Positions 23,539-45,542 of a stretch of 64,000 nt of DNA are shown here, piece by piece. The notes beneath the pieces were generated by a model. It was not told the origin of the DNA. It ran no database searches and worked only from the letters and a program-made list of their open reading frames with translations. The DNA lies in assembly GCA_918797485.1 (NCBI GenBank), contig CAKKNE010000004.1, positions 806,001-870,000 on the forward strand, given 5' to 3'. Every line of letters starts with the position of its first letter. The first letter of the stretch is position 1. A program made the translations under genes and the position numbers. This stretch comes from Pelagomonas calceolata (taxonomy: Eukaryota).

Positions 23539-23780
23539 GTTTTGGCATACTACTACCTGTCGCCAGTGTCCTCGGGCCGCCGTCGCCGACGCAATGGCTT
23601 ATTTATAAATATTAGCATGGCAGGATATGCCGCGCCGGTTCTCGACGCGACGAAGAAGGGGGCGGGCGATACGAACTGCGACTGCGACCGATGCACCGTG
23701 GCGATACACAGGGGGCGACTGCGACCGATGCACCGTGGCGATGCACCGGGGGCGAGTCCGGCGAGCTCGCGGGGAGGCTA

Positions 23781-26700
23781 TCACACCTCGCCCGTCTTGG
23801 GCGGCGGCGGCGGCTGATCAGCGGCGGCCGCGGGGGGCTTGGCGGGCGCGGTCCGCCACGGCCCGTCGTATGCCGCCTCGGCGGCGCGCGCGCCGGCGGC
23901 GTCCTTGAAGACCACCATCGCGGCGTTGCCGCTGCCGAGGCCGACGTTCAGCACGGGCGCGAGCGCCTGGAACGTCTCACGCAGCGTGTCCTCCGTCGGC
24001 CGTGCGGCGCCGCGCGGCCACGACACCTTGAGAATGCAGGCCGGGTCGTAGGACGCCGGCGTCGGGCGCGCTGTCGGTTTCGCCTCGGGGTACGGCCAGG
24101 GCGGCAGCGACTGGCCGCCCGGGTAGGCGGCCGGCTTGGACATGTCGCTGAGCTCCAATGCGCCGCCGGCGGGTCGCGGCGGCGCCTTTTGGACCTCGAG
24201 CTCGACGTCGACCTCGACGTTCCTTTCGAAGGTGTCCTGGTCTTCTTTGTTCGTTTCGTGAGTCTCGACGTCGATGGCGTCGTAGTTCGCCCGGGCGGCG
24301 TCGTCCCACGTCGGTTGTCTCTGATTCGCCTCGATCTGAGCAGTTTTCTGGCGATGGTAGCGATGGTACGCGTAGTAACCGATGGCGGCGACGGCCAGCA
24401 AGAAGACGGCACCGGCGGCCAGCCCGCCGCCCGACGCTGCCGCAGTTTGCTCGTTCTCATCTTGCATTTGCTGGAGCATGTCGTACAGTACTTGAAGGTC
24501 GACTGGCTCTTCGCTGGAAGTCTTCTTCCACGACACGTCGAAGGTCATGCTGTGTGATTCGGGGCCCCGGGCCGGCTTCGACCAGGAGGACGTGCCTATG
24601 TCCCAAATTGGGTATTCGACTGCAATCTCGCCGTACGACCTCGAAGCAGGGTTCTCGTCCATGCTTGTCTGGTACTGGTACACCTCCTGGATGCCGTCAT
24701 CGTCTGGATCCTCGCAATCCGCGTAGAGTTCGAGCTGGATCTTCGAGTACTTGTAGCACTGATCTGGCATGTCGTCGTTCCGCGCGACGAAGATGTGAAC
24801 CTCGGACTGTCCGTACGGAATCGGGTCAATAACCAGGCCGTCTCCGTCCCGCATATTTAGGTTGGTTAGAGATACCGCACCCATCTCGAGCGCGCCCATG
24901 TCGCCCTCAGGACACTCGTCGCCGGCATCCGTTTGTTTCCCCGAGTACCACCACGTCGTGCCGCCGTTGGCCGCGCGGAGCCAGTACCGCACGCCAGCTC
25001 GCCAAGGCGATCTGTTCTGAAGCTGCACGGAGAAGAAGGCGGTCTCGCCGGGTTCCAGGTCTTTGCAGCCTTCGGTTGCGCACTGCGGCGTGATGCTAAT
25101 GATGCTGACCCCGCTGTCCCGCCGTGTCGTGCCCGTCTCACCGGGGCACGACGAGAAGCCCCCCAAGGTCGTGAAAATGGGCGTGCCGTAGGTCGCATCC
25201 ATCGCGACCTGGACGGCAAACACGTCCCTCACGTTGTCATCTTTAAGGGAAACAGCTACGGTGTGCGTGTGTCCGGTCTCCTTGTTGGCGGACCGCGACA
25301 TGCTCACCGAAAATGAATCTGTTTCTGCGTGACCCCACGTACCACAGCCCTGGATGCCGAGCTGCAGGCGGCGGCGACACCCGCCGCCTTCGGGGGGGCC
25401 CTCGTGTTCGGGCGTGTTGATCTTCTGCGCGGCCGTGAGAATCTCATTCATTTTATCCTTGGTGGCTTGGTTCACTGGGAGTTTCCGTCGCCCCTGCTCG
25501 GGCGCAGCCGCCGCCTCCTCCACCAGCTTCCGCCGTTTCTCCGCGAGCGCCTCGGGCGTCACCTCGAGCAGCTTCTTGGACACGGCGTGCACGGGACCGC
25601 TCGTCGGGTACGCGTAGCCGGCCAAGGACACGAGGCCACTGCTTGAACGAGACTCGTCGGTCAGGCGCCGGCCGATCTGAAAACCAAAACTACCGTCGTA
25701 GTTCCAGCCGCCCTCTAACGACCCATCCGTGGTCACGGACACATCGGACCCGCGCGCCTCCGCGACGTCCCACGAGAAGTCGACGCCCGTCGAGCCGGAG
25801 AACGTGAGGAATCTTTCCGTGTCGCTGAGGAAGTTTAACGCGCTCAGATAATGAGCTCCGCTCATGGTCGTTCCGATGCCGGGCACCGTACCGTCTCGCT
25901 TGCAGAACGTCTTCACAGACTCGATGTCAGTCTCAAAGCCGCACACGCCGAGGAGCGTCTGGACAAGGTCCACTTTCTCTCCGATGTTTTGGTAAGCGGT
26001 GCACAGAGGATGAAGATTGGTGGGATCTATCTTGCTCGTTGCCACGGCGCAAGCTTTTGCTGCTTCCGTGACGCTATCACTCACCTTGCCGACCGTGTCC
26101 TCGATATATTTGTGCCCGTCAAATCCTGCAGATTTTTCCTTAATATCGTCGGTGACCCCTCCGTCTTCAACTCCCCCATCAGGTATCACAGACTGCATGT
26201 CCTCGCCACGCTTGTGCCTGTTGAGGTTCTCAATCCCCCGCGCGACGAAGTCCTTGACTTCGGAGGACTGCGCGTCGCTTAGGTCGTTTAGGTCTTTGTG
26301 AAACTTTGTAAAGTCCGTGTGCAAACCGTCCATTACCGTCTGAAGCTGTGCGGCGACGCTCGTCTTCTCGGTTGCCCGGTAGGCTGTGAGCACTTTCTCC
26401 CAATTAGTTAGCTGTGTTTGCAGTTTCGTAGCGTCCATGCCCTCACCTGATATTTCCATGTCTCCATTACCTATGTCCCGAACCGCTTCGCCCAAACGCT
26501 CGATCGTCTTCTCGATCTCGTAGACCGTCATGACGTACGTCGTGATCCTCTCAGGTATGAACTCGACCGTCTGCCTTCCGGCGAGACAGATCTCACCGTT
26601 TCCATTTTTCCCCTCTCCCTCTGGTGGGTCTCTGTAGACCTCTATGGCCGAGATGAAGCGCAGGTTGGCGCCGCCACCAATAATAACATCGGACGGCTGG

Positions 26701-29700
26701 CCCGCCAGGTATGGCGAGTCAGAAGTGGTGATGGCAATTCCAAAGGAGATGCCGATGTCAAAGTGTGACGATGATCCGCGGCTGACGGTAATGCTAGTAC
26801 TATCTGACTGACCTCCTCCATGGTTGGTTCCAATACCCACGCCGTTGAAAATGACCCCGGGCGGCGCAGTTTTGAAACCGCCCTGAATGCCTCCAGAGGC
26901 GCTCCATTGGAACGTCTTGCCCAACGTTGCGGCGTGCGCGCCCTCGATGGCCATGGACGTCGAGATTGTTGACCCTTCGACGAGCGTGGCCGTCGACGCG
27001 CCGCCCGGCGGGTCGCGGAGGACCGAGAAGATCAGACCCTCCACGGCCGTCGTCCAGACCTGAGGAACCTCCTCAGCGATCGATCCCAGTATCAGCACGT
27101 GGCGCTCGAACAAAATCCTGGCGTTGTCGAACGCCCGCGTGAACTCCACGCTGATCTTCTTCGAGAAGGGCGCGAAGGGGTTGGGTTCGCCGGCCGTCAT
27201 GAAATGCGTGAACTCGAGGATGGATCCATCGCTCGACTCGGAGCAGGCGGTACTCGGGGTGATACTTGGGCAGCTTTCCTCGTAGTCCTCGGGGGTCACG
27301 CCGTCGGCGACATGGATCTTGATCTGGTGGTCGTCCGACGGCAGGTTCACACTAGGCGGTGGGTTATTCTCGTAGCCGTTACATTTGCCGCCCTCATCCC
27401 ACGGATAAATACCGTCGGCACCACAATTTGGCTCGCGCTCCACGAGCTCGAACTTGAACTCCACGACGTCGCCCTTGTTCAAGATCGAGTCCTCGTTGCT
27501 GGTACAGGCCTCGCCGTAAATGTTAATAGTGTCGTCCGTTTCAGGGTCATCCGTGAGAGGTTCGGGGGGCGAGAGCAGGAGGTCCTCGATTTTAGATCCG
27601 GCCTTTACTGCATTGAGACAGAGCGGCGAAATGATTTCGAACTGAACCAAGGCCGCCGCCGCGCTATTGTGGGCGAGATCCCTGCCAAAGTTTCGATCTA
27701 CCGGCAGCTCGTCTACGTAGGTGTAGTCCATGGTCGCGCAGGGTCTCTCTGCGCTCCCGGATACGTCGGGGATCTTCGCGCGGCAGCCGCGGAGCATAAT
27801 TTCCTCAGCGTTCACGGTGTCATCATCGTCACCAGACACGAAAAGCGTTCCTACCATCTCATCGCGCGGCGTCGGACCGTCAGGGTCGCCATCGCAGTCG
27901 TGAACCACGAGCTCTTGGTCGGCATTAGATAAAGTGCCGGGCGGGTAGTAATACTTCGGCTCGTCGACCTCGTCCGCCTCGAGCACGCGCACGTCGAACG
28001 CGGCGGCTCCGAGCCAGAAGGCGGCCTCGCCCCGCAGTATCCAGGCCGGCAGCTCCCACCCACAGCGCGCGACGCTCGCGACGACCGGCACGCCATTCAC
28101 GTACGAGGCCGGCTCTCGATTCGCGCCCGCGACGAGTCTCGCGGAGAGGCTCTGCATACTCGTGTCGAGGAAGTGGACCTCGGCATTTTCGTCTGCCTTG
28201 TAGTTGAACGTCGGCGCCTGGCCACCCGATGGATTGACCGAGAATTGCGTTGCTTGGGCGGCCGAAAACGCGTGCGTGACCGAGAACGTGTGCGCGACGG
28301 AGTTGAAGCTACAGAGGTAGTCCTTTACACACTGATCCGAAGGCCTCGGATCGTCGTTGAACTGAAACCCTATAGTATCATCCCAACCCGTAATAGAGAT
28401 CCAGGATCCCGCCTGGTAGCTTTCCGACGCAGATTTCCCTCCGTTCGGCTCATTGTAATATGTTGATGAGGCAGTCTCTGCCTCTCGCAGAAACCACGGC
28501 GACCCCGCGACGCTCGTCCAGCCAGCGACGACGGCCCCCGCGTCGTCGCTATTCATCGCGTACGTAATGGTTTCGGGATAAGTCCCATGCTGCTCGCGGT
28601 AGACGCCGACGAGGTTGGGCAAATGCTCTTTGCCCGTGATGCTTTGGTACTTATCACGCACGGCCTTTGCGTGCTCGTAGCTCCGCGGGACCCAGATGTC
28701 GTAGCCAGCGGGGCAGGAGTTGTCGTCGAAGTGACCACATGTCAGAGTACCATCTATCACCTCGAGGACGTCTACAAACTGCGTCCCCGTCGTGTCCGTG
28801 AATTGGACGCAGTGAAGCGAGCGGCCTTCGTGTGTGGACGTGCCAACAGCCGTGCACTCGGGCGGAGAAGCGCCGCCGTAGTATTCTTTCAGGCTGAGCG
28901 TCACAATCTCACCGTTGAAGACGGCGGTCGAGTACGTGCCGTCGTCCTGCAGCTCCACGTCTTCGACGGCTCCCGAAGCGCGCGTGATCTCGAGCTTTGC
29001 GCCGTCGACGGAACAGATGCACTCCTCTGTGTCCGCCCTCGTGTAGATGGCTGCGACCGAGATGGCGGTATCGGGGGCGAAGCCGGATCCGGTATCTTCC
29101 TGCCAAGTACCAGATACTGCCTCAAGGTCCTGGGCCGAGTCAGCCACATGTATCGCTGCAGAAGCACTTCCACAGCCGTCACTTCCGATGTGCCATTTTC
29201 CAGTTTTGTACCAAATATACTGATCGCTGCTGCAGTCGACGCACTCGTAGTAGGGCACATCCTCGCACAGCCCGTTCTGCCGGTACGTCCCGTGCGTGTC
29301 TTGATGATTGGAGGTTCCTGAGACAAGGAAAGAGTCTAACAGGAACTGGAACTTCGTGTGAGGGCAGTCCTCAGCGAAGTAAGCGGCACCGAAGCCGGCG
29401 TGCGACACGGTGCCCGAGATGACGACGGCCGTCTCGTCGATGAAGGTCAAGGGGGCCTCCTCCAGGTGGCGCAAGATCGCTTGCTGGGTTGGGGGCTCGA
29501 AGTCGTGTTCCAGTATTCCGAGGACCTTGATCGGATCGCCCCAGATCCGGCTGGTAGCAGAAGTTGGGTCAGTAGAAGAGCCGGTCAAGGTAGCCCAACT
29601 GGATCCAGCGTAATTGTTCGTAGTAATACAGGTAGATTCGTCGTTGATAATCCAAACTTTATCCGCGGAACGCCATAGGTAGCCACCGCAATCCCTGCAC

Positions 29701-32700
29701 TCGTAGCGGGGCATGCCGTTGCACAGAGCTATGCTGTTGCTGCTGCTATCAGGAACGGGGAAGTATGCCCCGTTCCTGTCCAGCGAGTCGTCGAATCCCG
29801 AGACCCTCAATGGGCTCTCTTGGTCGTAGTCCGCGCCCTCCTTTTTATCACTTAACTTCTCGACGTCCACGCGGAAGTGCTGCGTTTTACTAAACCAATT
29901 GCTATCCTGGACGCGCACCCTTAGCACCGCTTCTCCGTAGGCATCTGTCTCTTCCTCGAGGAATTCCCTGTATGTCTCATCGACGTCCACTTTGCCGCTG
30001 CCATCATCTTTCATGCGCGACAGCTTCACGGTGACTTTCTCGACTGGTCCACCTCCCTCGGCCACGACGGAGACCCGAACGTCGCCAAACCACGTCACGA
30101 TGAAGCCGCTGGTTGTGGACGAAGAAGCCCCGCCCTGGAGTCGCCGCGCGCGCCTCCGGGAGCCGCTGCTCGATAGGGCGAATTTGTCCCCGCTCACGCC
30201 GACCTTGTCCTTGATCTCGGCGCCAGCCGCGTCGAGCGGCACGATGGCGTAGCCGACCCCAAGGCCTGGCTCTGATCCTGTCGTGGCGTCGCGGAAATCC
30301 AGATAGTTGTGCGTGAGCCCACACGTAGAAGAAGAGACTTCGCGCAGGAGCCGGGCCGACGTGTCCTCAGCGAACGGCGCGGAAGGGTCGTATTTGTAGA
30401 TGCGGTAGCCGCTCGCCACCGTCGACGTGTCGAGCCAGCTAATCGAGACGCCTTCCTTGCCCAGCATGCGCGGGAATATATCCATGGGCGTTCCGTCGTA
30501 CTGGAGGCCCGTCGTGCAGCGCGTCGTTGTCGTGATGCCCTCCGTATCTAAGTCGCAAACTGGAATCTCCTTCAAGCAGATGTCCGAGAGCGTGACTTTG
30601 GCGGCGTCGTACCACGGATCCGCGACGTACACGGCAGCGTTCTCCCGAGCAGGGGTCGAGCCCCCGGTAGAGGTGGCGAGCTTAACGCCATCGACGTACA
30701 GGACCAGCTTGCTCTTATCGAGAACGACCTTGATGTCGTAGGTCCTTCCGGCCGTGAAACCGAAGGAGGTGTCGGTGGATGCACCACAGCAAGTGTCATG
30801 GTTTACGTACAGTCTGTTGTCGTTTGGTTCAAACCAGATGCCAGGCATGCGGTGGCCATTTTCGTCGCCGATGTGAAAGACGGACTGCCACGCGCCCGTG
30901 ATGCTCCAGTCACCCGCCAGCTCCATCGTGAACGAGAGCACGTAGTCCTCGAACGTGACATCGGCAGTCCCCACCTTGTTACCCTTGGAAGCGGTGTATG
31001 GACCGGGCAGACTCAGCGCGCACTCGGCCTGGCCCACACCAGGACAGAACTTCGTCTCGACGCAGTAGCTGTGCTTGCTGATGGCGAGCGCCTCGACCTC
31101 GCGAAAGATAACGTCGGAGATCGTCGCTTTTACTGGCGCGTACCAAGGACCGCCCACATATAGCACGCCGCCGTCCGCGGGCGCACTCGTCGAGGTTCCT
31201 TGTGTAGAGACTTCCAGCAGGCCGTCCACGTAAACGCTGAGCAACGAGTCAATATTGGTGATTCTGATCTCATAAGATTCGCCCGCCTTGAACACAGTAG
31301 TCGCATATGCATTTGTCTCCCCACTGTTTTCGTTGCTACGGGCAACATACAAGCGACCCACGTCCGAAAACCAGAGACCGGGGTAGCGTAGCCCGTTCGC
31401 CTCGTCCTTGCCGGTCAGATGGATAATAGAAATGGTAGATCCGAAAACCTCATCTTGATCCATGGCGATGGTGAGCGAGAGCTCGTAGTTGGCCGGTGTC
31501 GGCACCGTGCCCAGGTTGCAGCCGCCGTCGGAACACATGTTACCAGAATTATCTCCGCAACCGGAACCAACCGCGGCGTCCAACGTGCACCAGCTGCCGC
31601 ACGGGCCACCGGCAGTGTACGAGGCGTCGTTGTAGCAGATCCCTGGAATACTTACGTGTGGGTACGGGAAGCTCGCGGGGCACCCGCATGCGCCGACGTC
31701 GATCGGCGCGCTGTACTCGCTTGGCCATAAATTAACGACGAGCTCGCCGTCTGGCGATTCGACGCAGCTTCCCTCGGAGGTAATCTCACCCGCGGCCGTG
31801 CAGGGGCTTCGATGGTGAGACTCTACCTTGTAGTCGGGACCGAGTTGGAACTTGAACTCGCACTCGGAGTCGAATTCGCCGCGGCAGTCGTTAGAATCTA
31901 CGTTGCTGTCTCCACTCGAGACGTCGTCATCCCAGCTATCGTACGCAGAGAGCGCCTGGCCGTTGAAGAAGGCGCACTGCTGGAAGATGATCTTCTCGCC
32001 GCGGTCGACGGTCCACTCGAGTTCTGGTTTAGCCTGATTCTGGGTTGTACATTCGGTGTTCGTAGAGAGGGGATTCGGATAGGTCGCCGTCATCGCCGAG
32101 ATTTCGCCGGAGCCGCTCGGCTTATCGTGGTAGTCCTTCGTGCCCTGCGTCTCCAACCGGTCGAGCTCATCCTGGATCATGTCCGTGATGGTCACGTCGT
32201 TCTCGTCCAGCTTGACGCCATCTCTCGACCAGATGTGCGACACCTTCAAAGGAATCGCCATGCCACCGTCCGCTATCGCCCTCCTTGCCTGCGCGGACAG
32301 TGAGTCACCGACGAACGCGGCCTCGGTTAATAATTGCATTGATAGACGCTGGCCCTCGCCTCGGTGACGCTTAAATGATTGTCCGAATTCACGTCGAATG
32401 CACGGAACGCTGCCGAGATGCCCGAGAAGGCCTCGTTCCTCGAGAGCACTCGCGCGTGCCGCGGCCATTGCACTTCTAATACAAGAAATCCGAGCGACAC
32501 CGCTGGCTTCGTGCCCGCGCATTCAGCTTGATCGCAGTTCGTGCCGGTTTGGCCGGGTGCGCAATCGCACTCGTTTTCGCTCGTTAAGCCGCTCTGGTTC
32601 GGGTCCCAAAGACTCTCAAGGTAGCCAGCGTAGCCGACGTCGCCGCACTTCAAGCATTCGCCGGCTTGGCCTCCCGTCGCGTACGTTCCCGCGGGACAGA

Positions 32701-33654
32701 TCGAGCAAGAGTTGGGTTGACCTGCTGTCGAGGACGTGCCCGCGGGGCACGGCTGGCACGTGCCGCCCTGCACCGAAAATTCTCCCGCGGCGCAAGTCAC
32801 GCAGGCCGTGTGCGCCGAGTTAGACGTCTGGCCCGCGGGGCAGGCGGCGCACGCAGTTCCCGCGCTCGAGATGTAGCCCGCGGGGCAGTCTTGACACCCG
32901 CTTTTGGCTGAGTTCGACGTCTGGCCCGCGGCACATATTCCGCACGAGGCCCATGCCTCTCCAGAGTAGTATCCCGTGGCGCATGCAGGACATCCAGTGT
33001 TCCTCGCATGAGGAGAGTAAGTCCCCGCAGGGCAGTTCGTGCAGCCGCCATTGGCACTCCCGGAAGAGTACTTGCCCGCGCCGCATTGACCGCACGAACT
33101 CCACGCCGCTTCGGAGTACCATCCCGCGCCGCACAAGTGAACGCACGAGGTTTGGGATCCGGCACTTGGTTGATACGTCCCGGCTCCGCATGCAGTAGTC
33201 GCTCCGTTGTTGTAGATATTACTATAATATCCTGCTGGAGCCGATAGGCATGCGCCGAGGGAGGTTGTCCAGCTGTAATAATCGCAGCAATAGCCGTGAC
33301 CGTAACCTGGCGTGTGGCTTCCGGGTCTACCGGGCGGGCAATACTGGCCATGATAATGACAACTCCATCCGCTACACCTGCGTCGTTTCGAGGTTAAGTC
33401 TGCCGACGGACGCGCGAGCACGATCGGTCGGAACACCGGTTTGATTTCTACACTGCGCGATACGACGACGCGACACCATTGTTGGCGTCTCCTGCTGCGA
33501 ACCCCGCCGCCGCCAGCAGCGCGCCGCCGACGCGCCCGGCTGCGGACCCGCGCGCCGCGAGCACCAGCGCCGCGCTCCCGGCTGCCCTGGGGTGCTGGCA
33601 GGCTGCCGCGAGCACCAGCGCGGCGGCGAGCGGGGCAGCCTTCTCTTTTACCAT
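23781..33654 (-). CDS. Giant single-pass membrane protein A (about 3238 aa; exons 33654-33464, 33377-32360, 32288-23781)
   Basis: Signal peptide MVKEKAAPLAAALVLAAAC, GCC2/TNFR-like C..CPAG repeats, EF-hand loop DVNSDNHLSVTE, LamG-like modules, LRDPPGG core, TM GLAAGAVFLLAVAAIGYYAY, RRM-like tail. Exon joins are guided by alignment to paralog B; the total is a multiple of 3. Confidence 0.85.
32289..32359 (-). other. GC-AG intron in giant gene A (71 bp), absent from paralog B
   Basis: Removal gives LSVTE|ARRAIADGGM, matching the uninterrupted LSVDEARHALRDGGM of gene B. Confidence 0.8.
33378..33463 (-). mobile_element. Degenerate introner intron in giant gene A (86 bp)
   Basis: Donor GTATCGCG (8 nt) is followed by TIR-like CAGTGTAGAAATCAA. 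The downstream exon starts GTGTAGCG (6/8 TSD match). The phase-2 join links the signal exon to the Cys-rich exon. Confidence 0.65.
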
Positions 33655-33764
33655 CGGGCGTGCTCTCGTCGTGTCAGGTGCTGCCGCGCGACGCGGTACG
33701 CCCTCTCGGAATTTGGCTCTCTCTCGGCCGGCCGCTGGGCGCGGCGAGCCGATCCGCGCAGATC

Positions 33765-34320
33765 GCGCCGCGCAAGACCGCTCCGGGAAGGCCCGGACGA
33801 GTCCCACGCAACCCTCGGGAGGGATCTCGCGCGGCGCTCGCGACGGCCGCCGCGCGTGCCACCTAGAACATGATCGACATGGCGTTGCCCCGCCCGCCCT
33901 TGGGCGCCACGAGCCGGCCCTTGATGAAGTATATTTATATTTTAATGTTGCTTTGCTTAGGGCTACTTAGCACCGTTTGTTCTCGGCGCGGGCGAAGCAG
34001 GCGATACGAACCAGCACAGTTGCGACTGTGACCGATGCACCTTTAGCGACTTCCGGGCGGCGCTGGGCGTGTGCGTGCGGCCGCTCAGCAGCGGCGAGAC
34101 GTAGAAACTGTTAATCTCTTTATACTAGGGGATACTACACCGGGGGCGGCCCGGGTGCAACGGGAGCTGATGGGGAAAGGGAGTCGCTGTTTGCCGATGT
34201 ACCGTGGCGATACAACGAGGGGAGTCCAGCGAGCTTATAAGGAGGCCATCACACCTCGCCCGTCTTGGGCGGCGGCGGCGGCTGATCAGCGGCGGCCGCG
34301 GGGGGCTTGGCGGGCGCGGT
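33765..34320. repeat. Duplicated spacer (promoter of gene A, PA28 3' fragment, 3' flank of gene B)
   Basis: Near-identical to about 45745-46318. Confidence 0.9.
33860..33923 (-). pseudogene. Fragment of the PA28 3' coding end
   Basis: cacctagaacatgatcgacatggcgttgcc...cttgggcgccacgagccggcccttg matches the PA28 end at 46463-46525. Confidence 0.8.
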
Positions 34321-37300
34321 CCGCCACGGCCCGTCGTAGGCGGCCTCGGCCGCGCGCGCGCCGGCGGCGTCCTTGAACACCACCATCGCGGCGTTGCCGC
34401 TGCCGAGACCGACGTTGAGCACGGGCGCGAGCGCCGCGAAGGTCTCGCGCAGCGTGTCCTCCGTCGGCCGGGCGGCGTCGCGCGGCCACGACACCTTGAG
34501 AATGCAGGCCGGGTCGTAGGACGCCGGCGTCGGTCTCGTCTCGGGGTACGGCCACGGGGGCAGAGACTGGCCGCCCGGATAGGCGGAGGGCTGTGGCGGC
34601 GCCTTTTGGACCTCGAGCTCGACGTCGACCTCGACGTTCCTTTCGAAGGTGTCCTGGTCTTCTTTGTTCGTTTCGTGAGTCTCGACGTCGATGGCGTCGT
34701 AGTTGGCCCGGGCGGCGTCGTCCCACGTCGGCTGTCTCTGAGCCATCTCGACCTGAGCAATTTTCTGATGGTGGCGATGGTACATGTAGTAACCGATGGC
34801 GGCGACGGCCAGCAAGAATACCGCGCCGACGGCCAGCCCGCTGCCCGACGCCGCCGCCGTTTCCTCGTTTTCTTCTTGCATTTGTCGGACCATTTCGAAT
34901 AGCTCTTGTTGATTCTCGAGTAGTTGAGCGAGCTGGTCTTTTTCGCCAGCACCTTCCTTCCAGGACACGTCGAAGGTCTTCCTAGACGTGTCGGGGCCGT
35001 TGGCCTTCGACGCGTCCGTGAAAGTGTAGAGGTCACAGTGTTTGTATGGGGCCCATGGGTCCTTCGCCAACAACTGTTCCCGTTCCGTGGGCATGGCGGT
35101 TGGAGCGAAGCTGACATGATCGTCCTCTTCTTTCTCTTTTTCTGGAAATGTTAGATCATCCTTCTTCGTGAGGAGGTGGGTGGTCGTTTGGCGCGTCTTG
35201 TAGTCTTTGTGGTCTGCGGGTTTGGTGACGTCGTAAGTCACTAAGTCGTCCACCAGGCAATCGCAGCCGTTCTGGCAGCGGCATTGCCCGGTCACCTCCT
35301 CCCAGTCGATCGCCTTGAGCTCAAAGGGCCCGTCGACTGGCGAGCACTTAAACTCCTCACCCTTGTCATCCGTCTGTTGTATGAACGAGATCGGGCAGCC
35401 TTGCGCGGCTGCAGACTCCATCGAGGGAACCTTCTCGATCTTGTTAAGGACCTCGATTTTTTCATTACACTTCGACCAGCAACTCGCTGGAGACAGCGTG
35501 CAGTCCACGGCCAGGTTCAGGTCCGAGTAGCACCATTTACCGTCGCCATGATACGTGGAAGCGGGAGTGGTGCCTGCGCCGGCACCAGTAGTAGCAACGA
35601 TGCCATCAAGATCAACGATGCCCGCGGCAGGACAGTCTGTTCCAGCCGAATCTTCGTCAGCACATTCAGCAACTAAGGTGATGCCGGGGTCCAAACCGAC
35701 GGGCCGCCCGACAAACTTCGGGTGGACCACGCTAACAGCGCCATTCTCAGGATCCATGTGCGCCTGGTACTGGTACACGTCCTGATTGTTGGCCCAGTCC
35801 GTGTCCTCGCACACCGCAACGAGCTCGAGCTCGAGGTCTGAGTACGAGCGGCACTGCGGCGTGAAGTCGCGTCGAGACACGAGAAGCCGAATCTCGGACT
35901 GGCCGTAGGGAAGCGGCGCGAGTTCTTCGCCAGCGCCGTTGCGGAGGTCACCGGAATCGGAGCCAAGAGGGTTGATCAGCAAGGAACCGAGGTCGCCGGG
36001 GGGGCACGCCTCTTCAACAAGCCGGGCGTACTTGCCCGAATCCCACGCCGTCGAGGCGCCGTTCACCGCGCGGAGCAAGTATCTCACGCTCGTCACCCAG
36101 GGCGAGAGATTTTGGAGCACCACGGAGATAATGGCGTCCTGGCCGGGCTCGAGATCTTTGCACTCGCACGTCAGCTTGCTTTTGCAAAGGGCCTCGCCAG
36201 TATCGGCGCTTTCTTTGATATCAGCATCGGAGACACACAGAGGCTTGATCTCCTTGATCGTCACGCGCGAGTCGCGCCGCGTCGTGGCCGTCTCGCCGGG
36301 GCACGACGAGCGGCCTCCCATTGTCGTGAATATGGGTGTGCCGTAGGTGGAGTCCTGCGAAATCTTCACGGCGAAGACGTCCTGCGCGTTTCCGTCCTTC
36401 AGGGAGACGGCGACGGAGTGCGTGTGCTCGGCCTCCTTGTTCGCGGCGCGTCCCAACGATACCTCGAATGAAGAGGATGTCCCGCCTTCGAAATCGGCGC
36501 ACGCCGTGATGCCGAGGCGACGGCCTCCTTCGTCGGACATTTTGGTCAAGCGCCGACGGCATGGGTTGCTGTCGTCGGGTTCATTCATCTTGTTCGCAGC
36601 CGCATTTACAGCGGCTACATCAAGCTTGTCCTTTAGCCGCCGCCTCTCCTCGAGCGCCTCCGGCGTCACCTCCAGCAGCTTTTTGGACACGGCCAGCACT
36701 TTTCCAGTCGTAGGGTAGGCATAGCCGGGCACGCCTTTATCGGTGGCCTCTAGGCGCCGCCGCCCGATATTGGCACCGAACCCAAGGCTCCCGCCTATTG
36801 CGTCGTTGACGGCCCCGTCGTGCGTCGAAGAGAGTTCCTGGCCGCGAGACTGCGAGACATCCCAGCTGAGTTCGATGCCCGTGGTCCCAGAGAACGTGAT
36901 GAAGTGCGTGGTGTCGGATAGCGCGTCGAAAGCGCTGATGTCCTCGTAGTTGCCCGTATCCGCCCGATATGGGCCTTTCTTGCAGAACCTGTGCGAAGAT
37001 CAAACCTGAGGTCGAATGGGCCCGCGAAGAAAATGATTGAATTCAAAAGCACTGTGCAGAACGCTTCTACCGCGTTCAGTCCGTCCTTTAAGTCGCAAAT
37101 GCCGAACAGTGAAGACTTGAGCTCGAGCTTCTCATGGATCTCCTTGTAGACACTGCACAGCCGGGCCCCTCCGCCGGGCTCCGCGAGTTCAACGCTAGCG
37201 ATGCAGTCGCTATATACAGAATTAACTCGGTCCAAAACGTCGTTCTCGTAGAGCTCTAGCCGAGGGCGGTCCGCGACATCCTCCATCGTTTCCGCATCGC

Positions 37301-40300
37301 TTAGCGCTGTATCGCCCACCGGTCCCAGATTATTCTGCTCCCGATGGTAGATTAACTTGTGCTTTTCAAGTTCGTTTAGACCATGTGACAAAAAGTCAGA
37401 GAACTGATCTGCCTCAAAACCACCCGTGGTTGCAGCCTGTAGAAAGCTTTGAAAGTTTTCGTGGATGATGTCCAACTCGTCCTTGAGCTGCTCGGCGACT
37501 GACAGCGCCTGGTCCTTGATTGTCGCGGCTCTGTAGTTCGCGAGCACGGTCCGCCAGTTCTCGATCTGCTTTACGAGGTCGTCGCGCGGGTCGGGCCCGC
37601 CGCCCTTCGCCTCGATCTTTGTGTTCGGATCGGTCAGCGCCGCACCGATGCGCTCGATCGTCTTCTCGATCTCGTAGACGCTCATGACCCACGTGCTGAT
37701 CTGCTCGGGTAGGAACTCCAGGGCAGTGAGGCCGCCAAGACAGAGGCCGCCAGTAACGTCGGGATCCACCTTCGCATAGATCTCGATGGCCGAGATGAAG
37801 CGCAGGTTCGCGCCGCCGCCGATGATCACGTCGGACGGCTGGCCCGCGATGTAGGGCGAGTCGGACGTGCTGATGCTGACGGAGAAACTGATGCCGATGT
37901 CGAAATGCCGCGAAGTTGAACGCGAGACGGTCACGTCCGTGGGCGTGTGCGCGTAGGAAAAGCCGGCGTTAAGGCCAACTGAGGCAACGTTTTTAATCAC
38001 AAACGCCCCGACGCCCAATCCTCCTTTCACAGCGACTCCAGCGCCAACCGAAGCGCCAAACTCAAAAGAGTCTTCCAGCTGGGCGGCGTGCGCGCCTTCG
38101 ATGGCCATGGACGTCGAGATGGTGGAGCCTTCGACAAGTGTGGCCGTCGACTCGCCGCCCGGCGGGTCGCGGATGATCGAGAAAATCAGCGTCGGATTCG
38201 TGGCTGCTGTCCAGACCTGCGGCACCTCTTCTGGAATCGACCCAACAACCAGCACGTGGCGCACGAACAGAATCTTGGCGTTGTCGAACGCCCGAGTAAA
38301 CTCCACGCTCAGCTCGTGCGAGAACGGCGCGAACGGGTTCGGCTTGCCCGCCGTCATGGTGTGTTTTAATGTCGCGGTTCCAGCATATTCGCCGCTGTCC
38401 CCGATTCCGCTGACACCGTCGGCGACTCGAATCTTGATCTGGCGGTCCGTCGGTAGGCTATCATGCGCCGGCAGGGAAACGTCATTGTAGCTGCTACATA
38501 TATCCCACGGATAAAGACCGCTGCCTGGACACGTGGGCTCGCGCTCCACGAGCTTGAACTCTAGCTCCACAGCGTCGCCCTCGCGGAAGATTGCGCCCGT
38601 GTTCGTGGTGCAAGCTTTGCCATACAGTCCATCCTCCTCGGGCTCGGGTAATTCCGACAGGAGCAGCATGCTCTCCGGGCCGTCTATAGGGTAAGCAGCG
38701 GTATCCCGGAGAAGTGGTTTTCCGGCATTGTCTACACCAGGGTCGATGAGCTTCTGGACAATCAAATCGGTCACCGCATCGGCTGCTTTTCCGCTTGACG
38801 ACACAGTTACAGAGTCCAGGCAGAGCGGCGAAATGATCTCGAAGTCAACCGGCTCGAGGTTGGTAAGGTCCGAGAGGTCCTTGTCAAAGTTTCGAGTCAC
38901 CGGCAGCTCGTCCACGTAGGTGTGGTCCATGGTTGCACAGGGAAGCCTCTCGGTCTGGCACTTTTTATTGGCGGGAGTTTCACCTTCGCCGCACTCTCGC
39001 ACCTCGGGGATCTTCGCGCGGCAGCCGCGGAGCATAATATCTTCAGTACTCTGGGTGCCACTGGCATCGGTCACGAAGAGTGTTCCGACCATGTCGTCGC
39101 GAGATAGCGTATCCTCATCGCAGTCGGGGACCGCTAACTCCTGGCCAGCATTAGACAGATCACTGAGCGGGTAGTAGTACGCCGAGTTGTCGACCTCGTC
39201 CGCGCCAAGCGTGCGAACCTTGACCGCGGCGGCCCCGACATTGCCAAAGTCGGCGACGCCCCCCAGCGTCCAAACTGGTTTCTCCCAGCCGCAGCGCGCT
39301 ACGCTCGCGACCACCGGCAGGCCGTTCACGTAGGATGCCGGGGCCGGGGCTGCGCCGTGGACGAGCCTGGCAGAGAGGCTCCGGATACTATCGTCGACGA
39401 AGTGCACCACGGCGTCTTGGGTCGCCATGTACGTAAAGCTCGGCAAGACGCCGTCCTGCTTGCTAATCAGGGAGTCCCCCGATTCCTGGGTGACCGAGAA
39501 CGCGTGGAGGCTCACGCGGCTACAGAGGTAGTCGGTGAAACACTGTTCCGGACTCTGGCCCGGCAAAATCGGAGCGTCGTCAAACTGAAACCCTAGAGTA
39601 TCATCCCAACCCGTGATAGTGATCCAGGAGCCCGCCTGGTAGTTCCCTGCAGATGTCCCGCCGTCCGGCTCAGTGTAGTATCCTGATGCCTCAGCTTCTC
39701 GCAGGAACCACGGCGACCCTGCGACGCTCCGCCAGCCGGCGGCGACGGCTCCCGAGTCGTCGCTGTTCATCGCATATGTAATGGCTTCGGAATGAGCCCC
39801 ATCCTGCTCGCGGTACACGCCGACGAGTTTTTTGAAATTGCTATTAATGTTCGTATCATCCCAGATCGCCTTTGCGTGCTCGTAGCTCCGGGGGACCCAG
39901 ATGTCGTAGCCAGCGGGACAAGAATTAACGTCGGTGTGATCACAGGTCGGAGTACCTGTCACCGCGACAACGTCGACTAGGGATTTGTCCGGCAGCTCGA
40001 TGCAGTGAAGTTTCCCGAGGCTACTATCATCTGGGTCATAGTCTCGGCTTTCGACTTTCTCGCAGTCCGAATTCACACCAACGCCGTAGTATCTGCCCAG
40101 GTAGAGCGTCACCTGCTCGTCCTCGAGAACTGCAGTCGCGAACCTTCCGTCATTTACTGTCACTTCTTCGTGGTCTCCAGATGCGCGTATGATGAACACC
40201 TTCGCGCCGTCGACGGGGCACATGCACTCGCTGGAGTCCTCGCTCTTCGTGTGTGGACAGTCGGCGGCGAAGTAATTGGCGTCAAGGCCGGCGTGCGAGA

Positions 40301-43300
40301 CGGTACCGGAGATGATGTTGACCGTCGTGTCAGTGAACTCAAAGGTGGTCTCGCCGAGGTGCTTCACGGACAAGTCCTTGGAAGGGGGCGAGAAGCCGTG
40401 AATTACATCGACATTGTTCGCGTTCTTTGACGTCTTCTCGACCTCCACGCGGAAGTGCTGCGTGAGGGTAGTCCACGACGTATCTTCGACGCGAATATTT
40501 AGCAGCGCTTCCCCGTACTCGTCCGTTTGCGCAGTGACGAAGCCCATCTGATAATTCTGGTCGATAGCGTTGTTGACCAAGTGGGCAACCTTCACGGTAA
40601 CGTCCTCGACTGGCCCGCCGCCCTCGGCTTCCACCTTCACCCGGATATCGCCAAACCACGTCACAATAAAGCCACTTGTCGTGGACGAGGCCGACGCCGA
40701 CGAAGAACTGAGTCGTCGGCGCCTCTCGGAGGACAACGACGCGGAGCTGCCCCCGCTCACGCCGGCCTTGTCCTTGACCTCTTTGCCGGCGTCGTCGAGC
40801 GGCACGATTGCGTAGCCCACTTGTAGGCCCGGCTCCGAACCGGTCGTCACGTCGCGGAAATCTATATAGTTGTGCGTGAGACCGCATGCAGAAGTGGAGA
40901 TCTCCTTCAGGAGCCGGGCCGACGTGTCCGTGGCGAACGGCACAGAAGCATCGTACTTGTAGACGCGGTAGCCCGTCGCGACTGTCGACGTGTCGAGCCA
41001 GCTGATGGACACGCCTTCGTTGCCCAGCATGCGCGGAAAAATATCTGCAGGCGTCCCGTCGTACTGAAGGCCGGTCGTGCAGCGCGTGACCGTGAGAGCT
41101 GGGTCGGCGAGAGTCGCGTCGCAGACCGCAGTGCCGCTGGGGCAAAACTTCGTCTCGACGCAGTAGCTCTGCTTGCTGATGGGCAGGACTTCGAAAGAGC
41201 TAGTTGTCGAGAAGCCCCTCACGTACGCGTAGGTGTTGCTGTATGCCATAAAGCCGAGGTAAGTCGTCGTCCCAAATGCGGAACAATAAGATCTGCTAGA
41301 CGTAAGGACATCCACGCCGTCGACCGTCCACGCATCCAGGTACACACAATTGTTCCTCGTCGCAAAGACCAAGCGCCACGTGTGCCACTGCGTTGGGTCT
41401 GTCACGTCTGCCGGACCGTACCACGTCTGGCCTGCCACAGAGTTATCCCACTGATAGTCGCCAAGGCCATACCTCCCTCCATCAGAGATCCACCAAAGAT
41501 CAGGTGTCTCCCGACCCGTCGAGCCCAACGACGAACGAAACGGCTCGAAGAACCAATGCGGCGTTATGCTCGACTGCTGTCCAGTCACGGGTGTCGTACA
41601 GTCGGCCTCGTAGCAACCGCGGGTCTCGAACTCGACGACGAGGGAGCCTTCGAAGTCCCATGTGACGGGAACGTCGAGCGAGCATGCCCCGAGGGTCTTC
41701 ACTGAGAGCTCGCTCGCCGTGACGGAGCACCCCGAGGTGCTGCCGATAGCAGAGGCGAGGTTGACCGGAGCCGCAATAGCCGCTTGCTGGTGGTAGCTTT
41801 TGACCTGGTAGGAGTCTGGCAGATAGAACTCGAATTCGCAGACTTGAGCTCCGTCTGTCCCGCTGCAGTCCGTAGAATCGACATTGCTTCTCCCGCTCGA
41901 GACGTACTCGTCTAGATTGGCGAGAATGTTGCTGCTTTTTGAGAAGAATCGGCGTAGATACGCGTAGGTGCCGCCGTATGTGGCTAGTCCGAGGTATGTT
42001 GTTTTGCCATACGCGGAACAATACTTGCGAGTGGCCGTAAGGACATCTACGCCGTCGACCGACCAAGCATCTAGGTACACACAATTGTTCCTCGTCGTAA
42101 AAACAATGCGCCACGTGTGCCACTGCGTCGGGTCTGCCACGTTGTTTGGGCCGTAGTTAGTCCTGTCTGTCGCAGAGTCATCCCAAGAATAGTCACCAAG
42201 GCCATAGGTAGCTGTATCTGAGATCCACCAGAGATCAGGCTGCTCGCGGCCCGTCGAGCCTAACGACGAACGGAACGGCTCGAAGAACCAATGCGGTAAA
42301 ATGTTCGTCTGGCCTCCGGTCACGGAAGTCGTACAGGCTTCCTCGCGGCAGCCGCGGGTCTCGAACTCGACGACGAGGGAGCCTTCGAAGTCCCACGTGA
42401 CCGGCACGTCGAGCGAACATCCATCATTGCCCGTAAGCAAGAGCTCGCCGTCACTCGTGACGGAGCACCCCGAGCTGGTGCCGATGGACGCCTCTAGATC
42501 GAGCTCCGTGTCCCGAGAGGGCGCCTCACCGTTAAAGAAGGCACACTGCTGGAAGATGGTGTTGTCGCCGCGGTCGACGGTCCACTCAAGGAGCGGTTGC
42601 TCCTCGTGCTGGTCCTCACACTCATCCTCCGTAGTGAGCGGATTGGGATAGGTCGCCGTCATTGTATCGATTGCGCCGGCGCTCATCGAACGTTCGTAGA
42701 ATTCCTTCGTGCCCTGCGCCTCCAACCGCGCGAGCTCGTCCTGGATCATGTCCGTAATAGTCACGTCACCCCTGCACGTTTCTGCTGCCACCCACGTCGA
42801 ACCAACGCAGCATTTACCGCTCGAGGGACAGTACTGGCCTTCTACGGAGCAGTCCTCGGCGCAGGAGTCAGCAGCCTCGTGGATTTCCACGCGCGCCCCG
42901 TTTTCCACGCGGGACCAAACGTGGGACACCTCAAAAGGAACCGCCATGCCGCCGTCCCGCAGCGCATGCCGTGCCTCGTCGACGCTCAGACGATTGTCCG
43001 AGTTCGCGTCGAACGCGCGGAACGCGGCCGAGATGCCCGAGAAGGCTTCGTTTCTCGAGAGCATTCGCGCGTGCCGCGGCCACTGCACCTCCAAAAGGAG
43101 GAAGCCGAGCGACACCGCCGGCGTAGTGGTCGCGCAGGTCTCCTGCTCGCAGTTCGTACCGGTCCTGCTCAGGGCGCACTCGCACTTATCCCCACTTGTT
43201 ATGCCGCTCTGTTCCACGTCCCAGAGGCTCTGGTCCCAGACGTCCTCCACGCACATCACCTTATCAAACTGGAAAGTTTGCTTCGATGAACCAGTGCCCC

Positions 43301-45542
43301 ACCATGGGTTAGAAACTGCGATAGTTGGAATGCCGTCGCAGCCGGTAGCGTGGTGCGTGGCGCAAAAAGTGTACCCGGATTCCAGTGAGCCCATTTGGAG
43401 CCATTGGTTGTCGTTGACTTCGAAAGAGCTAGTTGTCGAGAAGCCCCTCACGTACGCGTAGGTGTTGCTGTATGCCATAAAGCCGAGGTAAGTCGTCGTC
43501 CCAAATGCGGAACAATAAGATCTGCTAGACGTAAGGACATCCACGCCGTCGACCGTCCACGCATCCAGGTACACACAATTGTTCCTCGTCGCAAAGACCA
43601 AGCGCCACGTGTGCCACTGCGTTGGGTCTGCCACGTCTGCCGGACCGTACCACGTCTGGTCTGTCGCAGAGTTATCCCACTGATAGTCGCCAAGGCCATA
43701 CCTCCCTCCATCAGAGATCCACCAAAGATCAGGTGTCTCCCGACCCGTCGAGCCCAACGACGAACGAAACGGCTCGAAGAACCAATGCGGCGTTATGCTC
43801 GACTGCTGTCCAGTCACGGGTGTCGTACAGTCGGCCTCGTAGCAACCGCGGGTCTCGAACTCGACGACGAGGGAGCCTTCGTTCCACGTGACGGGAACGT
43901 CGAGCGAGCATGCCCCGAGGGTCTTCACTGAGAGCTCGCCCGCCGTGACGGAGCACCCCGAGGTGCTGCCGATAGCAGAGGCGAGGTTGACCGGAGCCTT
44001 GATAGGTGCTTCAGCATTGCAATCCGAAGAGTAGGGAATCCAAGCGTCGGTCTGGTCGACCGCACCTGTCCGCGAGGGGTCTTCCCCGTTTGGACATAGG
44101 TCGCTGTACGTTGCGAGCGAAAGTCCGAGCGCCGCGCACGTCGCCTTCTGTCCTTCCCACGAGTAGTCCCCCGATGTTATTTGCGTCCAAAGTGTGCGGC
44201 GAGGCTCGCCGCACTTTGTGCATTCGGTGGCGCCTCCCACCGAGTACGTTCCCGCGGGACAGAGCGTGCACTGGCCTTGCCCTGGCTCAACGAACGTACC
44301 GGCGGGACACTGCGTGCACGGCCCATGCGGACCAACGATTCCCGAGGCAAATCGGCGTAGATACGCGTAGGTGCCCCCCCATGTAGCTAGTCCGAGGTAC
44401 GTTGTCTTGCCGAACGCGGAACAATAAGAGCGGGTAAACGTGATGATCTCCGCGCCGTCGACCGTCCACTCGTCCAGGTACACGCAGTTTTCCCTCGCCG
44501 CAAAAACAAAGCGCCACGTGTGCCACTGTGTAGGATCCAGTCCGTTTGGACCGTAGTTGGTCCTGTCTGTCGCAGAGTTATCCCACTGGTAGTCGCCAAG
44601 GCCATCACCATTTGAGAGCCACCAAAGATCGGGCGGCTCGCGACCCGTCGAGCCTAATGCAGTACGGAACGGCTCGAAGAACCAATGCGGCGCAGTGGCC
44701 GACCCGACTGGGTCACATTCCTCATCGAGGCAGCCCTTCGTCTCGAACTCGACGACAAGGGAGCCTTCAAAGTTCCAGGTGATCGGCACGTCGAGCGAAC
44801 ATCCATCATTTCCCGTCAGCAAGAGCTCGCCGTCACCCGTAACGGAGCACTCCGAGCTGCTGCTTTCTATAGCTGCCTCCAAATTGATCTCCGCGCCTCT
44901 AAACGCATCGTCGCCCTGTCCTGCGGCCGAAAACGACCCGGCGTCGCACTGCGTGCACGAACTTGCCCCGACCCCTGAATACGTGCCCGCGGGACAAGTC
45001 GTGCACAAGTCGGCTCCCGCCGCCGCATACGTGCCCGCGGGACAGGACGTGCACGAGCCGGCCGCAGCCCCGGCGTACGTGCCGGCGTCGCACGGCGTGC
45101 ACTCGTCGGCTCCCTCCGCCGAGTACGTGCCAGCGGAGCATGTTTCGCACTCGCAGTGTGTGGCCGCATATTCGCCTGCTGCGCATGTCACCTTATCATT
45201 GAAAGGATTGCAACCCCTGCGTGGTACCGACACGGTTTCTGGCGAAGCGCGAGGGCGAGCTACTGTACACACTGCATCGCGCGTCGTCGTGCCATCGTCA
45301 AGGCGTCGTTGGTCCTTGAGCCCGACGTCGGGCGCGCCACGCATTTTGTTCCTCCACGGCCCGAGCCACCAGCGCCCAGCGGCGCCTTCAGACTCGTCTA
45401 CCTGCCCCGCCGCCGCGAACTCCGCTCCCGCCAGCAGCGCGCCGGCGCGCCAGGCCGGGCTGCCCGCGAGCGCCGAGGCCGAGACGGCGGAAGAGGCCGC
45501 CACCAGCGCGGCGACGGCGAGGGCAGCCCTTGCTCTTTCCAT
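34249..45542 (-). CDS. Giant single-pass membrane protein B (about 3739 aa; exons 45542-37063, 36988-34249; possible extra in-frame intron 45217-45282)
   Basis: Signal peptide MERARAALAVAALVAASSA, Cys-rich repeats, four about 170-aa beta-sandwich-like repeats, EF-hand, IRDPPGG core. TM and tail are nearly identical to gene A. Confidence 0.85.
36989..37062 (-). mobile_element. Introner intron (74 bp) with perfect 8-bp TSD GTTCTGCA
   Basis: TSD at 37055-37062 and 36981-36988; ends CAGTGC... and ...TTCGCACAG. Removal restores VEA|FCKK in frame with ORF 34249..36732. Confidence 0.9.
41190..44890 (-). repeat. Four internal coding repeats in gene B (about 41190-41772, 41945-42500, 43419-43996, 44350-44890)
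   Basis: Each encodes CSLDVP.TW..EGSLVVEFET.GC...PHWFFEPFR...PDLWW...DPTQWHTWR...NCVYLD.W.VDG. The copies at about 41190 and 43419 are almost identical in DNA. Confidence 0.9.

What the first reader, a model, noticed from the sequence alone, without database searches (positions are those of the whole stretch)
25290..25790. RRL-flanked insert plugged into the tip of a putative transmembrane hairpin
Seen: in gene A, ...DGSFGFQIG-RRL begins an insert of about 100 aa containing KRRKL and GRRKL and ending CRRRL-QLGIQGCG, where the alternating strand resumes. Gene B has the same layout (IGRRRL, ERRRL, CRRRL, GRRL-GIT). Another RRL site lies before GFIVTWFGD in both genes. Established: RRL/RxxL motifs are secretory proprotein-processing sites. 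Inference: an excisable safety-catch peptide whose removal arms the hairpin.
Basis: partly seen in the sequence, partly recalled or inferred. Interest (0 to 1): 0.7.

Follow-up and report, generated by a model that had tools for sequence, protein, structure and literature searches.

The report
Latched plug in an algal pore
A giant surface protein of the marine alga Pelagomonas carries a 102-residue insert, bounded by likely protease sites, exactly at the tip of a predicted membrane-piercing hairpin; relatives suggest it is a removable plug that would stay tied on by a disulfide until reduced, in a pore-like protein family with no match to solved folds.

Summary
Gene A (Pelagomonas calceolata by its cluster mate) has a 102-aa insert from RRL to RRRL, kept in mRNA (no joints in 861 reads). 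It sits at the turn of a hairpin that is 72-81 aa in 65 of 65 insert-less rows and 123-184 aa in 10 of 10 insert rows; the two arms alone sum to 80-84 aa. Coevolution in 227 bacterial relatives pairs the four arms of two hairpins in a closed antiparallel ring (0 of 3000 permutations each), the pattern of an oligomeric beta-barrel. No Pfam or solved-fold match was found. New here: a Cys just before an RRL in the insert has a partner Cys near the tip, on the 5' arm in four lineages and on the facing position of the 3' arm in Pelagomonas-type genes. Best reading (0.45): a propeptide nicked in the secretory pathway but held by a disulfide until reduced. Cleavage, disulfide, pore activity and target are all untested; RRL linkers also come and go elsewhere in these proteins.

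The parts
23781..33654 (-). Gene A, whole: 3238-aa type-I membrane protein (hydrophobic N-terminus, Cys-rich repeats, two LamG domains, two-hairpin core, C-terminal TM helix, tail); introns near 33376-33461 and 32287-32357
   Evidence: P0142 = CAH0373291.1 in the cluster of the 100% hit; joints in RNA; Pfam; start codon read
26691..27014 (-). Hairpin 1 of gene A (DPPG ... SDVIIGGG), no insert
   Evidence: arm pairing from bacterial coevolution
25671..25799 (-). 5' arm of hairpin 2 (43 aa after the TFSG Phe)
   Evidence: base strand E468-475 in model
25365..25670 (-). 102-aa insert, RRL ... KRRKL ... GRRKL ... CRRRL
   Evidence: in mRNA; two helices of middling confidence in model
25377..25379 (-). 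Insert Cys (Cys2382 of P0001), directly before the last RRRL
25248..25364 (-). 3' arm of hairpin 2 (39 aa), with Cys2393 (25344-25346) at position L-33
   Evidence: base strand E640-647
26586..26588 (-). Conserved core Cys1979; with Cys2459 (25146-25148) a candidate disulfide across the cut (inferred)
   Evidence: both at 90% or more in A6, invariant in A5
24357..24422 (-). Predicted C-terminal transmembrane helix
   Evidence: sequence, by eye
30138..30146 (-). Second RRL site, in a Ser/Gly linker before GFIVTWFGD; lineage-specific
   Evidence: present in genes A, B and P0006; absent in P0007 and the six other homologues where the site was found
34249..45542 (-). Gene B, tandem paralogue; 74-nt intron near 36981-37054; start codon inferred, upstream part not tested with RNA
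   Evidence: 85 junction reads over four runs
36514..36762 (-). 83-aa insert of gene B (RRRL ... ERRRL ... CRRRL ... RRL); insert Cys 36559-36561; arm Cys 36499-36501 at L-33
40710..40724 (-). Linker RRRRL of gene B before GFIVTWFGD

Best explanation
The insert is likely an internal propeptide that blocks a predicted barrel-forming hairpin: it would be nicked at its RRL sites in the secretory pathway, would stay tied to the hairpin tip by a predicted disulfide, and would be shed only on reduction, so that the protein likely needs two keys before it can enter a membrane. Shown: the insert is translated, sits at the hairpin turn, is bounded by R[RK]L in every carrier, and adds nothing to the arms. 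Inferred from coevolution in bacterial relatives: two long hairpins per subunit join a closed beta-barrel with a hydrophobic belt at the far end. Inferred from Cys positions: the latch. Inferred from other organisms: cleavage after RRL. After the cuts the chain would be two pieces, likely held by the core sheet and a conserved Cys pair. The target membrane is unknown.
For: Insert rows 10 of 10 with 2-4 R[RK]L, span 123-184 aa; insert-less rows 65 of 65 with 72-81 aa, no Cys, one with a single R[RK]L. Arms sum 80-84 aa. Insert interiors are unrelated between five lineage groups (local score z mostly under 2, highest 3.7) while the end motifs stay. Exactly two Cys in 9 of 10 rows; the tenth (P0010) lacks the insert Cys but its cluster mates P0147 and P0148 have it. 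Arm Cys at F+39 in 8 rows, at L-33 in gene A, gene B and P0006; the register F+6 with L (antidiagonal peak at sum 79; strand limits in both models) puts F+39 opposite L-33, both on the polar face. The L-33 group is one clade (0.999) among F+39 carriers. Ring closure: sums 215, 431, 635, 415, each 0 of 3000 permutations; controls 2895 and 257 of 3000; distal parts alone 0, 3, 6, 6 of 3000. mRNA keeps the insert. Precedent: RRL cut by ASP5 inside an inserted element of Toxoplasma LCAT (PMC6212819, passages); RXL removal from diatom precursors (PMC4557024, PMC5525289, passages).
Against: No proteomic, biochemical or structural data on this family. The distal arms have pLDDT under 50 in both models, so pairing at the tip rests on bacterial coevolution carried over to the algal rows. 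The Cys swap is one evolutionary event. The permutation test keeps column make-up but is not a full phylogenetic null. RRL linkers are common in these proteins and dispensable at the second site. L003, which groups with the insert carriers (0.876), and ten other non-Saprospiraceae rows have no insert, so the family works without this safety catch. The processing protease could not be looked for (no genome held). KRRKL lies inside a predicted helix and RKL sites may not be cut.
Confidence: 0.45

Rival explanations
1. Constitutive maturation linker: the insert is cut out during secretion like the insulin C-peptide or the complement C3 linker (recalled), helps folding or sorting, and has no role in timing; the Cys pair serves folding only.
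For: RRL linkers occur at domain borders throughout these proteins (P0006 has 8, L013 several); the second site comes and goes; interiors vary freely from 41 to 123 aa.
Against: The end motifs and a CRRL are kept in all five lineage groups at this one place, unlike the second site; the partner Cys moved to the facing strand position and not elsewhere; insert-less relatives fold without it.
Confidence: 0.25
2. Not a pore in the alga: the barrel is a structural tube or stalk (in bacteria it is encoded beside a tail-fibre-like gene), or the algal copy has lost membrane insertion, and the exposed turn simply tolerates inserts.
For: No match to any pore-forming family by Pfam; bacterial operon with S74-chaperone fibre gene upstream (4 of 9 upstream ORFs scanned hit PF13884) and Ig/cohesin/dockerin gene downstream; another eukaryote-type lineage has a charged 80-aa insert without RRL at hairpin 1.
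Against: Arm length and the alternating hydrophobic belt at the tip are kept in insert carriers; a tolerated loop would not need protease motifs at both ends.
Confidence: 0.2
3. The insert is cargo: a disulfide-linked peptide carried through the barrel and released in the reducing cytosol of a target, as in A-B toxins (recalled).
For: The arm Cys faces the polar, presumably luminal side near the far end.
Against: Interiors share no sequence between lineages and are low-complexity; no domain hit.
Confidence: 0.07
4. Artefact: an in-frame intron or a chance cluster of Arg-rich words in GC-rich DNA.
For: RRL occurs 10 times in 7921 aa of 14 other window ORFs; both genes have real introns.
Against: No joints and even depth over the insert in 861 reads of four runs of one sample, while the gene B intron shows 85 junction reads; same layout in named Aureococcus and CCMP2097 proteins.
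Confidence: 0.02

Closest known systems
MACPF/CDC pore-forming proteins, especially membrane-anchored perforin-2 (MPEG1)
   Same: Two hairpins per subunit rising from a four-stranded antiparallel sheet that oligomerises edge to edge (PMC2954219, passages; our ring); a TM-anchored, proteolytically processed ectodomain as in perforin-2 (PMC13631362, abstract).
   Different: No MACPF motif at strand 3, no Pfam or fold hit; hairpins not helical in the model (low confidence); register offset of about 4 residues per subunit against about 2 recalled for CDC/MACPF; processing sites lie in the hairpin tip itself.
Anthrax PA / aerolysin-type long-stem beta-barrel pores
   Same: Long Ser/Thr-rich polar stem with a short hydrophobic belt at the tip (comparison recalled); protease activation; aerolysin cluster as a weak Atlas lead (0.77).
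   Different: Those give one hairpin per subunit and carry terminal propeptides (recalled); here two hairpins and an internal, tip-located insert.
Toxoplasma LCAT inserted element cut by ASP5 at RRL; diatom RXL precursors (silaffins, silacidins, Sin1)
   Same: RRL motif in a secretory protein, in a lineage-specific internal insert (PMC6212819; PMC4557024).
   Different: Here the insert interrupts a predicted membrane hairpin and carries a conserved Cys; no protease is known for pelagophytes.
Saprospiraceae/Bacteroidota 'T9SS type A sorting domain / LamG-like jellyroll' proteins
   Same: True homologues of the core: 657 proteins, at least 484 GTDB loci.
   Different: Named only for their accessory domains; T9SS tail in place of a TM anchor; no insert, no Cys in hairpin 2.

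Membership tests
MACPF/CDC | Two hairpins inserted between strands 1-2 and 3-4 of an antiparallel four-stranded sheet | tested here: met
   Coevolution pairs A-B, B-G, G-H antiparallel in bacterial relatives; which contact is between subunits is not resolved
MACPF/CDC | Oligomerisation through the edge strands | tested here: met
   H-A closure, sum 415, 0 of 3000 permutations, top pair 65-350 at Z 12.8; inferred, no structure
MACPF/CDC | Signature Y/W-G-T/S-H-F/Y-X6-GG on strand 3 | tested here: not met
   Motif as given in PMC2954219; gene A has only YGTPIFTTLGG, shorter and after strand 4
MACPF/CDC | Hairpins stored as helical bundles in the soluble form | tested here: inconclusive
   No helices in the hairpins of either model, but pLDDT under 50 there
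MACPF/CDC | Fold match to solved members | tested here: inconclusive
Aerolysin / anthrax PA-type pores | One membrane hairpin per subunit (recalled) | tested here: not met
   Two hairpins in every full core examined
Aerolysin / anthrax PA-type pores | Long polar stem with a distal alternating hydrophobic belt | tested here: met
   Hydropathy by position
Beta pore-forming proteins in general | Membrane permeabilisation | not testable with these tools
   needs bench work
RXL/TEXEL-processed secretory proteins | RRL motif in a protein entering the secretory pathway | tested here: met
   Motifs; hydrophobic N-terminus and C-terminal TM judged by eye, no predictor run
RXL/TEXEL-processed secretory proteins | Cleavage after the Leu by a secretory-pathway protease | not testable with these tools
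   No proteomics on hand; no genome held to look for the protease

The most novel reading that the evidence does not exclude
An undescribed family of long beta-barrel pores, four strands per subunit with a shear of about four residues per subunit, shared by Bacteroidota and microbial eukaryotes; pelagophyte algae armed their membrane-anchored version with a two-key lock at the hairpin tip: Golgi nicking at RRL plus a disulfide latch on the lumen face, so the pore is unplugged only when its tip meets a reducing compartment.
Probability: 0.3. Interest if true: 0.88.

Novelty: new variant of a known kind. Interest (0 to 1): 0.72.

Why it matters
Pore-forming proteins are usually held shut by terminal propeptides or partner domains (recalled); a propeptide inside the membrane hairpin, latched by a disulfide that has jumped between facing strands, would be a new way to control one. 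It also points to a large, unnamed barrel-forming family (hundreds of Bacteroidota loci, several per genome) and gives an abundant open-ocean picoalga and the brown-tide alga Aureococcus a candidate contact weapon or defence. It extends RXL processing beyond diatom silica proteins and offers clean substrates for finding the unknown protease.

Tried and rejected
PDB sequence searches: nothing meaningful (1 hit at E 0.89; 0; 1 at E 2). Foldseek of the bacterial model: best TM-score about 0.1; of the gene A model: 0 matches at E 0.001. VIA wide: best Z 6.3, helix-hairpin matches only; VIA second look: best Z 3.9, HAP2/fusexin rows covering only the C-terminal Ig domain, so class II fusogen was rejected. 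These blanks do not show that the fold is new. Dimer prediction of the bacterial core: no verdict, score 0.00, alignment not used. Atlas: unnamed Bacteroidota clusters at 0.85-0.93, aerolysin at 0.77, leads only. Viral contigs: 0 relatives among 2 pattern hits. NCBIfam: only T9SS tail on 2 of 6 proteins as a passing hit. The 50%-representative search was never run (queue full at all 8 tries), so no wider independent test of the Cys rule was made; P0159 was the only new full hairpin and fits it. A regex census of 229 proteins was crude (26 of 191 unanchored; five long bacterial spans proved mis-anchored by eye) and is not used for counts. A5 used 69 of 75 genome loci plus 4 metagenome loci. The first tree run died; FastTree on 41 sequences, 248 columns, replaced it and leaves the single origin of the insert unresolved (0.147). 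Paper searches found no description of the family or of the insert (listings only; open-access library only; supplements such as Pelagomonas proteome tables were not seen). Earlier-findings look-ups by sequence, words and place gave nothing on this family.

Full report
Setting. The window is eukaryotic (kinase, SNF2, DENN, bestrophin genes). The 100% hit of gene A clusters with CAH0373291.1 of Pelagomonas calceolata, 3238 aa. Genes A (23781-33654) and B (34249-45542) are tandem minus-strand paralogues with a hydrophobic N-terminus, Cys-rich repeats, lectin-like domains, a conserved core, a C-terminal TM helix and a tail (signal and TM by eye).

The observation. Every motif quoted is present. 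The insert is 102 aa in gene A and 83 aa in gene B. Four of five R[RK]L sites of gene A lie in it, and RRL is about ten times more frequent than composition predicts in 8 of 9 insert-bearing proteins counted. Poly(A) reads from four runs of one sample cover the insert evenly with no joints (861 reads), while real introns are seen nearby. So the insert is translated.

The family. The core (DPPG ... SDVIIGGG ... helices ... TFSG ... LxDxxxxDxF ... SSCPGE) has homologues in pelagophytes, unnamed eukaryote-like contigs and Bacteroidota T9SS proteins (18 hits; 657; 80; 74 and 75 loci). In alignment A6 (75 rows) the stretch between the anchors F and L is 72-81 aa in 65 rows, with no Cys, and 123-184 aa in 10 rows, all with two to four R[RK]L. 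In those 10 the arms outside the first and last motif sum to 80-84 aa, the length of the insert-less eukaryote-type hairpin (77-81), and their far ends alternate hydrophobic and polar. The insert is therefore a pure addition at the turn. Its interior is unrelated between five lineage groups while the end motifs persist. A tree of the N-half puts all carriers with one insert-less row (0.876) and does not resolve a single origin.

What the hairpin is. AlphaFold of a bacterial core (pLDDT 74, pTM 0.72) and of gene A (pLDDT 64) pair the hairpin bases and leave the tips uncertain. Coevolution gives more. In 88 non-redundant bacterial hairpins the antidiagonal peak is at sum 79, that is F+6 opposite L. 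Mean-field couplings on 227 sequences (effective 146) pair the four arms of hairpins 1 and 2 antiparallel in a ring: A-B 215, B-G 431, G-H 635, H-A 415, none reached by 3000 column permutations, while the control pairs are reached 2895 and 257 times; the signal holds in the distal halves (0, 3, 6, 6 of 3000). The registers leave an offset of about 4 residues, too little for a closed four-strand barrel in one chain (geometry, inferred), so one contact is likely between subunits: an oligomeric barrel about 35-40 residues long. This works like MACPF/CDC in layout (PMC2954219, passages) and like PA or aerolysin in stem character (recalled), but the MACPF signature is absent and no profile or fold match was found. 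Membership is not claimed.

The latch. Nine of 10 insert rows have exactly two Cys in the span; the exception is an Aureococcus gene model whose two cluster mates have both. One Cys always stands directly before an RRL or Arg run inside the insert. The other is at F+39 on the 5' arm (CCMP2097, Aureococcus, P0014, L001, L002) or at L-33 on the 3' arm (genes A, B, P0006). By the register above these two positions face each other, on the polar side, and the L-33 group is a nested clade. A partner that moved across the hairpin to the facing position is what a disulfide from insert to tip would allow. It is one event, so it is suggestive, not proof.

Mechanism. RRL is cut after the Leu by Golgi ASP5 in Toxoplasma, including inside the inserted element of LCAT (PMC6212819, passages); diatom precursors lose RXL-ended pieces to an unknown protease (PMC4557024, PMC5525289, passages), though one paper calls this unproven (PMC5647440, passages). 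If cutting is constitutive here too, it cannot be the trigger, or the protein would be armed in its own Golgi. A disulfide-held polar fragment on the tip solves that: nicked but latched until reduced. Shown: position, translation, conservation. Inferred: barrel, membrane entry, cleavage, disulfide, inhibition. Unknown: target and protease.

Against. RRL linkers are frequent in these proteins, and the second site is absent from P0007 and the other pelagophyte groups, so plain maturation (0.25) is a live rival. The barrel may be structural, given the fibre-like neighbour in bacteria (0.2). Many relatives need no insert. All tip geometry comes from bacterial sequences.

Verdict. Observation confirmed; interpretation partly supported and refined to a two-key lock (0.45). 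Six paper searches of an open-access library (listings) showed no description. New variant of a known kind (protease-activated beta pore), possibly in a new family. Interest 0.72.

Noticed in passing
L075-L149, around the match: Bacterial relatives sit in a recurring three-gene run: a 300-750-aa gene upstream (4 of 9 upstream ORFs scanned hit Peptidase_S74, tail-fibre-like), the barrel gene, and an Ig/cohesin/dockerin or T9SS gene downstream; several paralogues per genome.
   Followed up: partly
P0017, P0018, P0156 against P0157 (hairpin 1): A charged, repeat-like insert of about 80 aa without RRL replaces the tip of hairpin 1 in three cluster members and is missing in the fourth; it may be a second, independent plug or a mis-read intron.
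   Followed up: no
window 23850-24038 and the matching end of gene B: The cytosolic tails of genes A and B are nearly identical and end in a small domain that looks RRM-like by eye (recalled); Pfam gives only DUF4523 at E 0.045.
   Followed up: partly
window 23600-37600: Run X24 covers gene A about as deeply as gene B, while X21-X23 favour gene B; condition or library differences were not separated.
   Followed up: no
L014-L074: Many metagenome loci encode 2500-3700-aa Bacteroidales-like relatives with the DPPGG hairpin-1 motif; their hairpin 2 was not parsed.
   Followed up: no
P0148, P0014: Some algal relatives carry a JmjC domain near the N-terminus, and P0148 has cytosolic WW domains.
   Followed up: no
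window 25154-25190: The conserved YGTPIFTTLGG resembles the MACPF signature but is shorter and in another place.
   Followed up: partly
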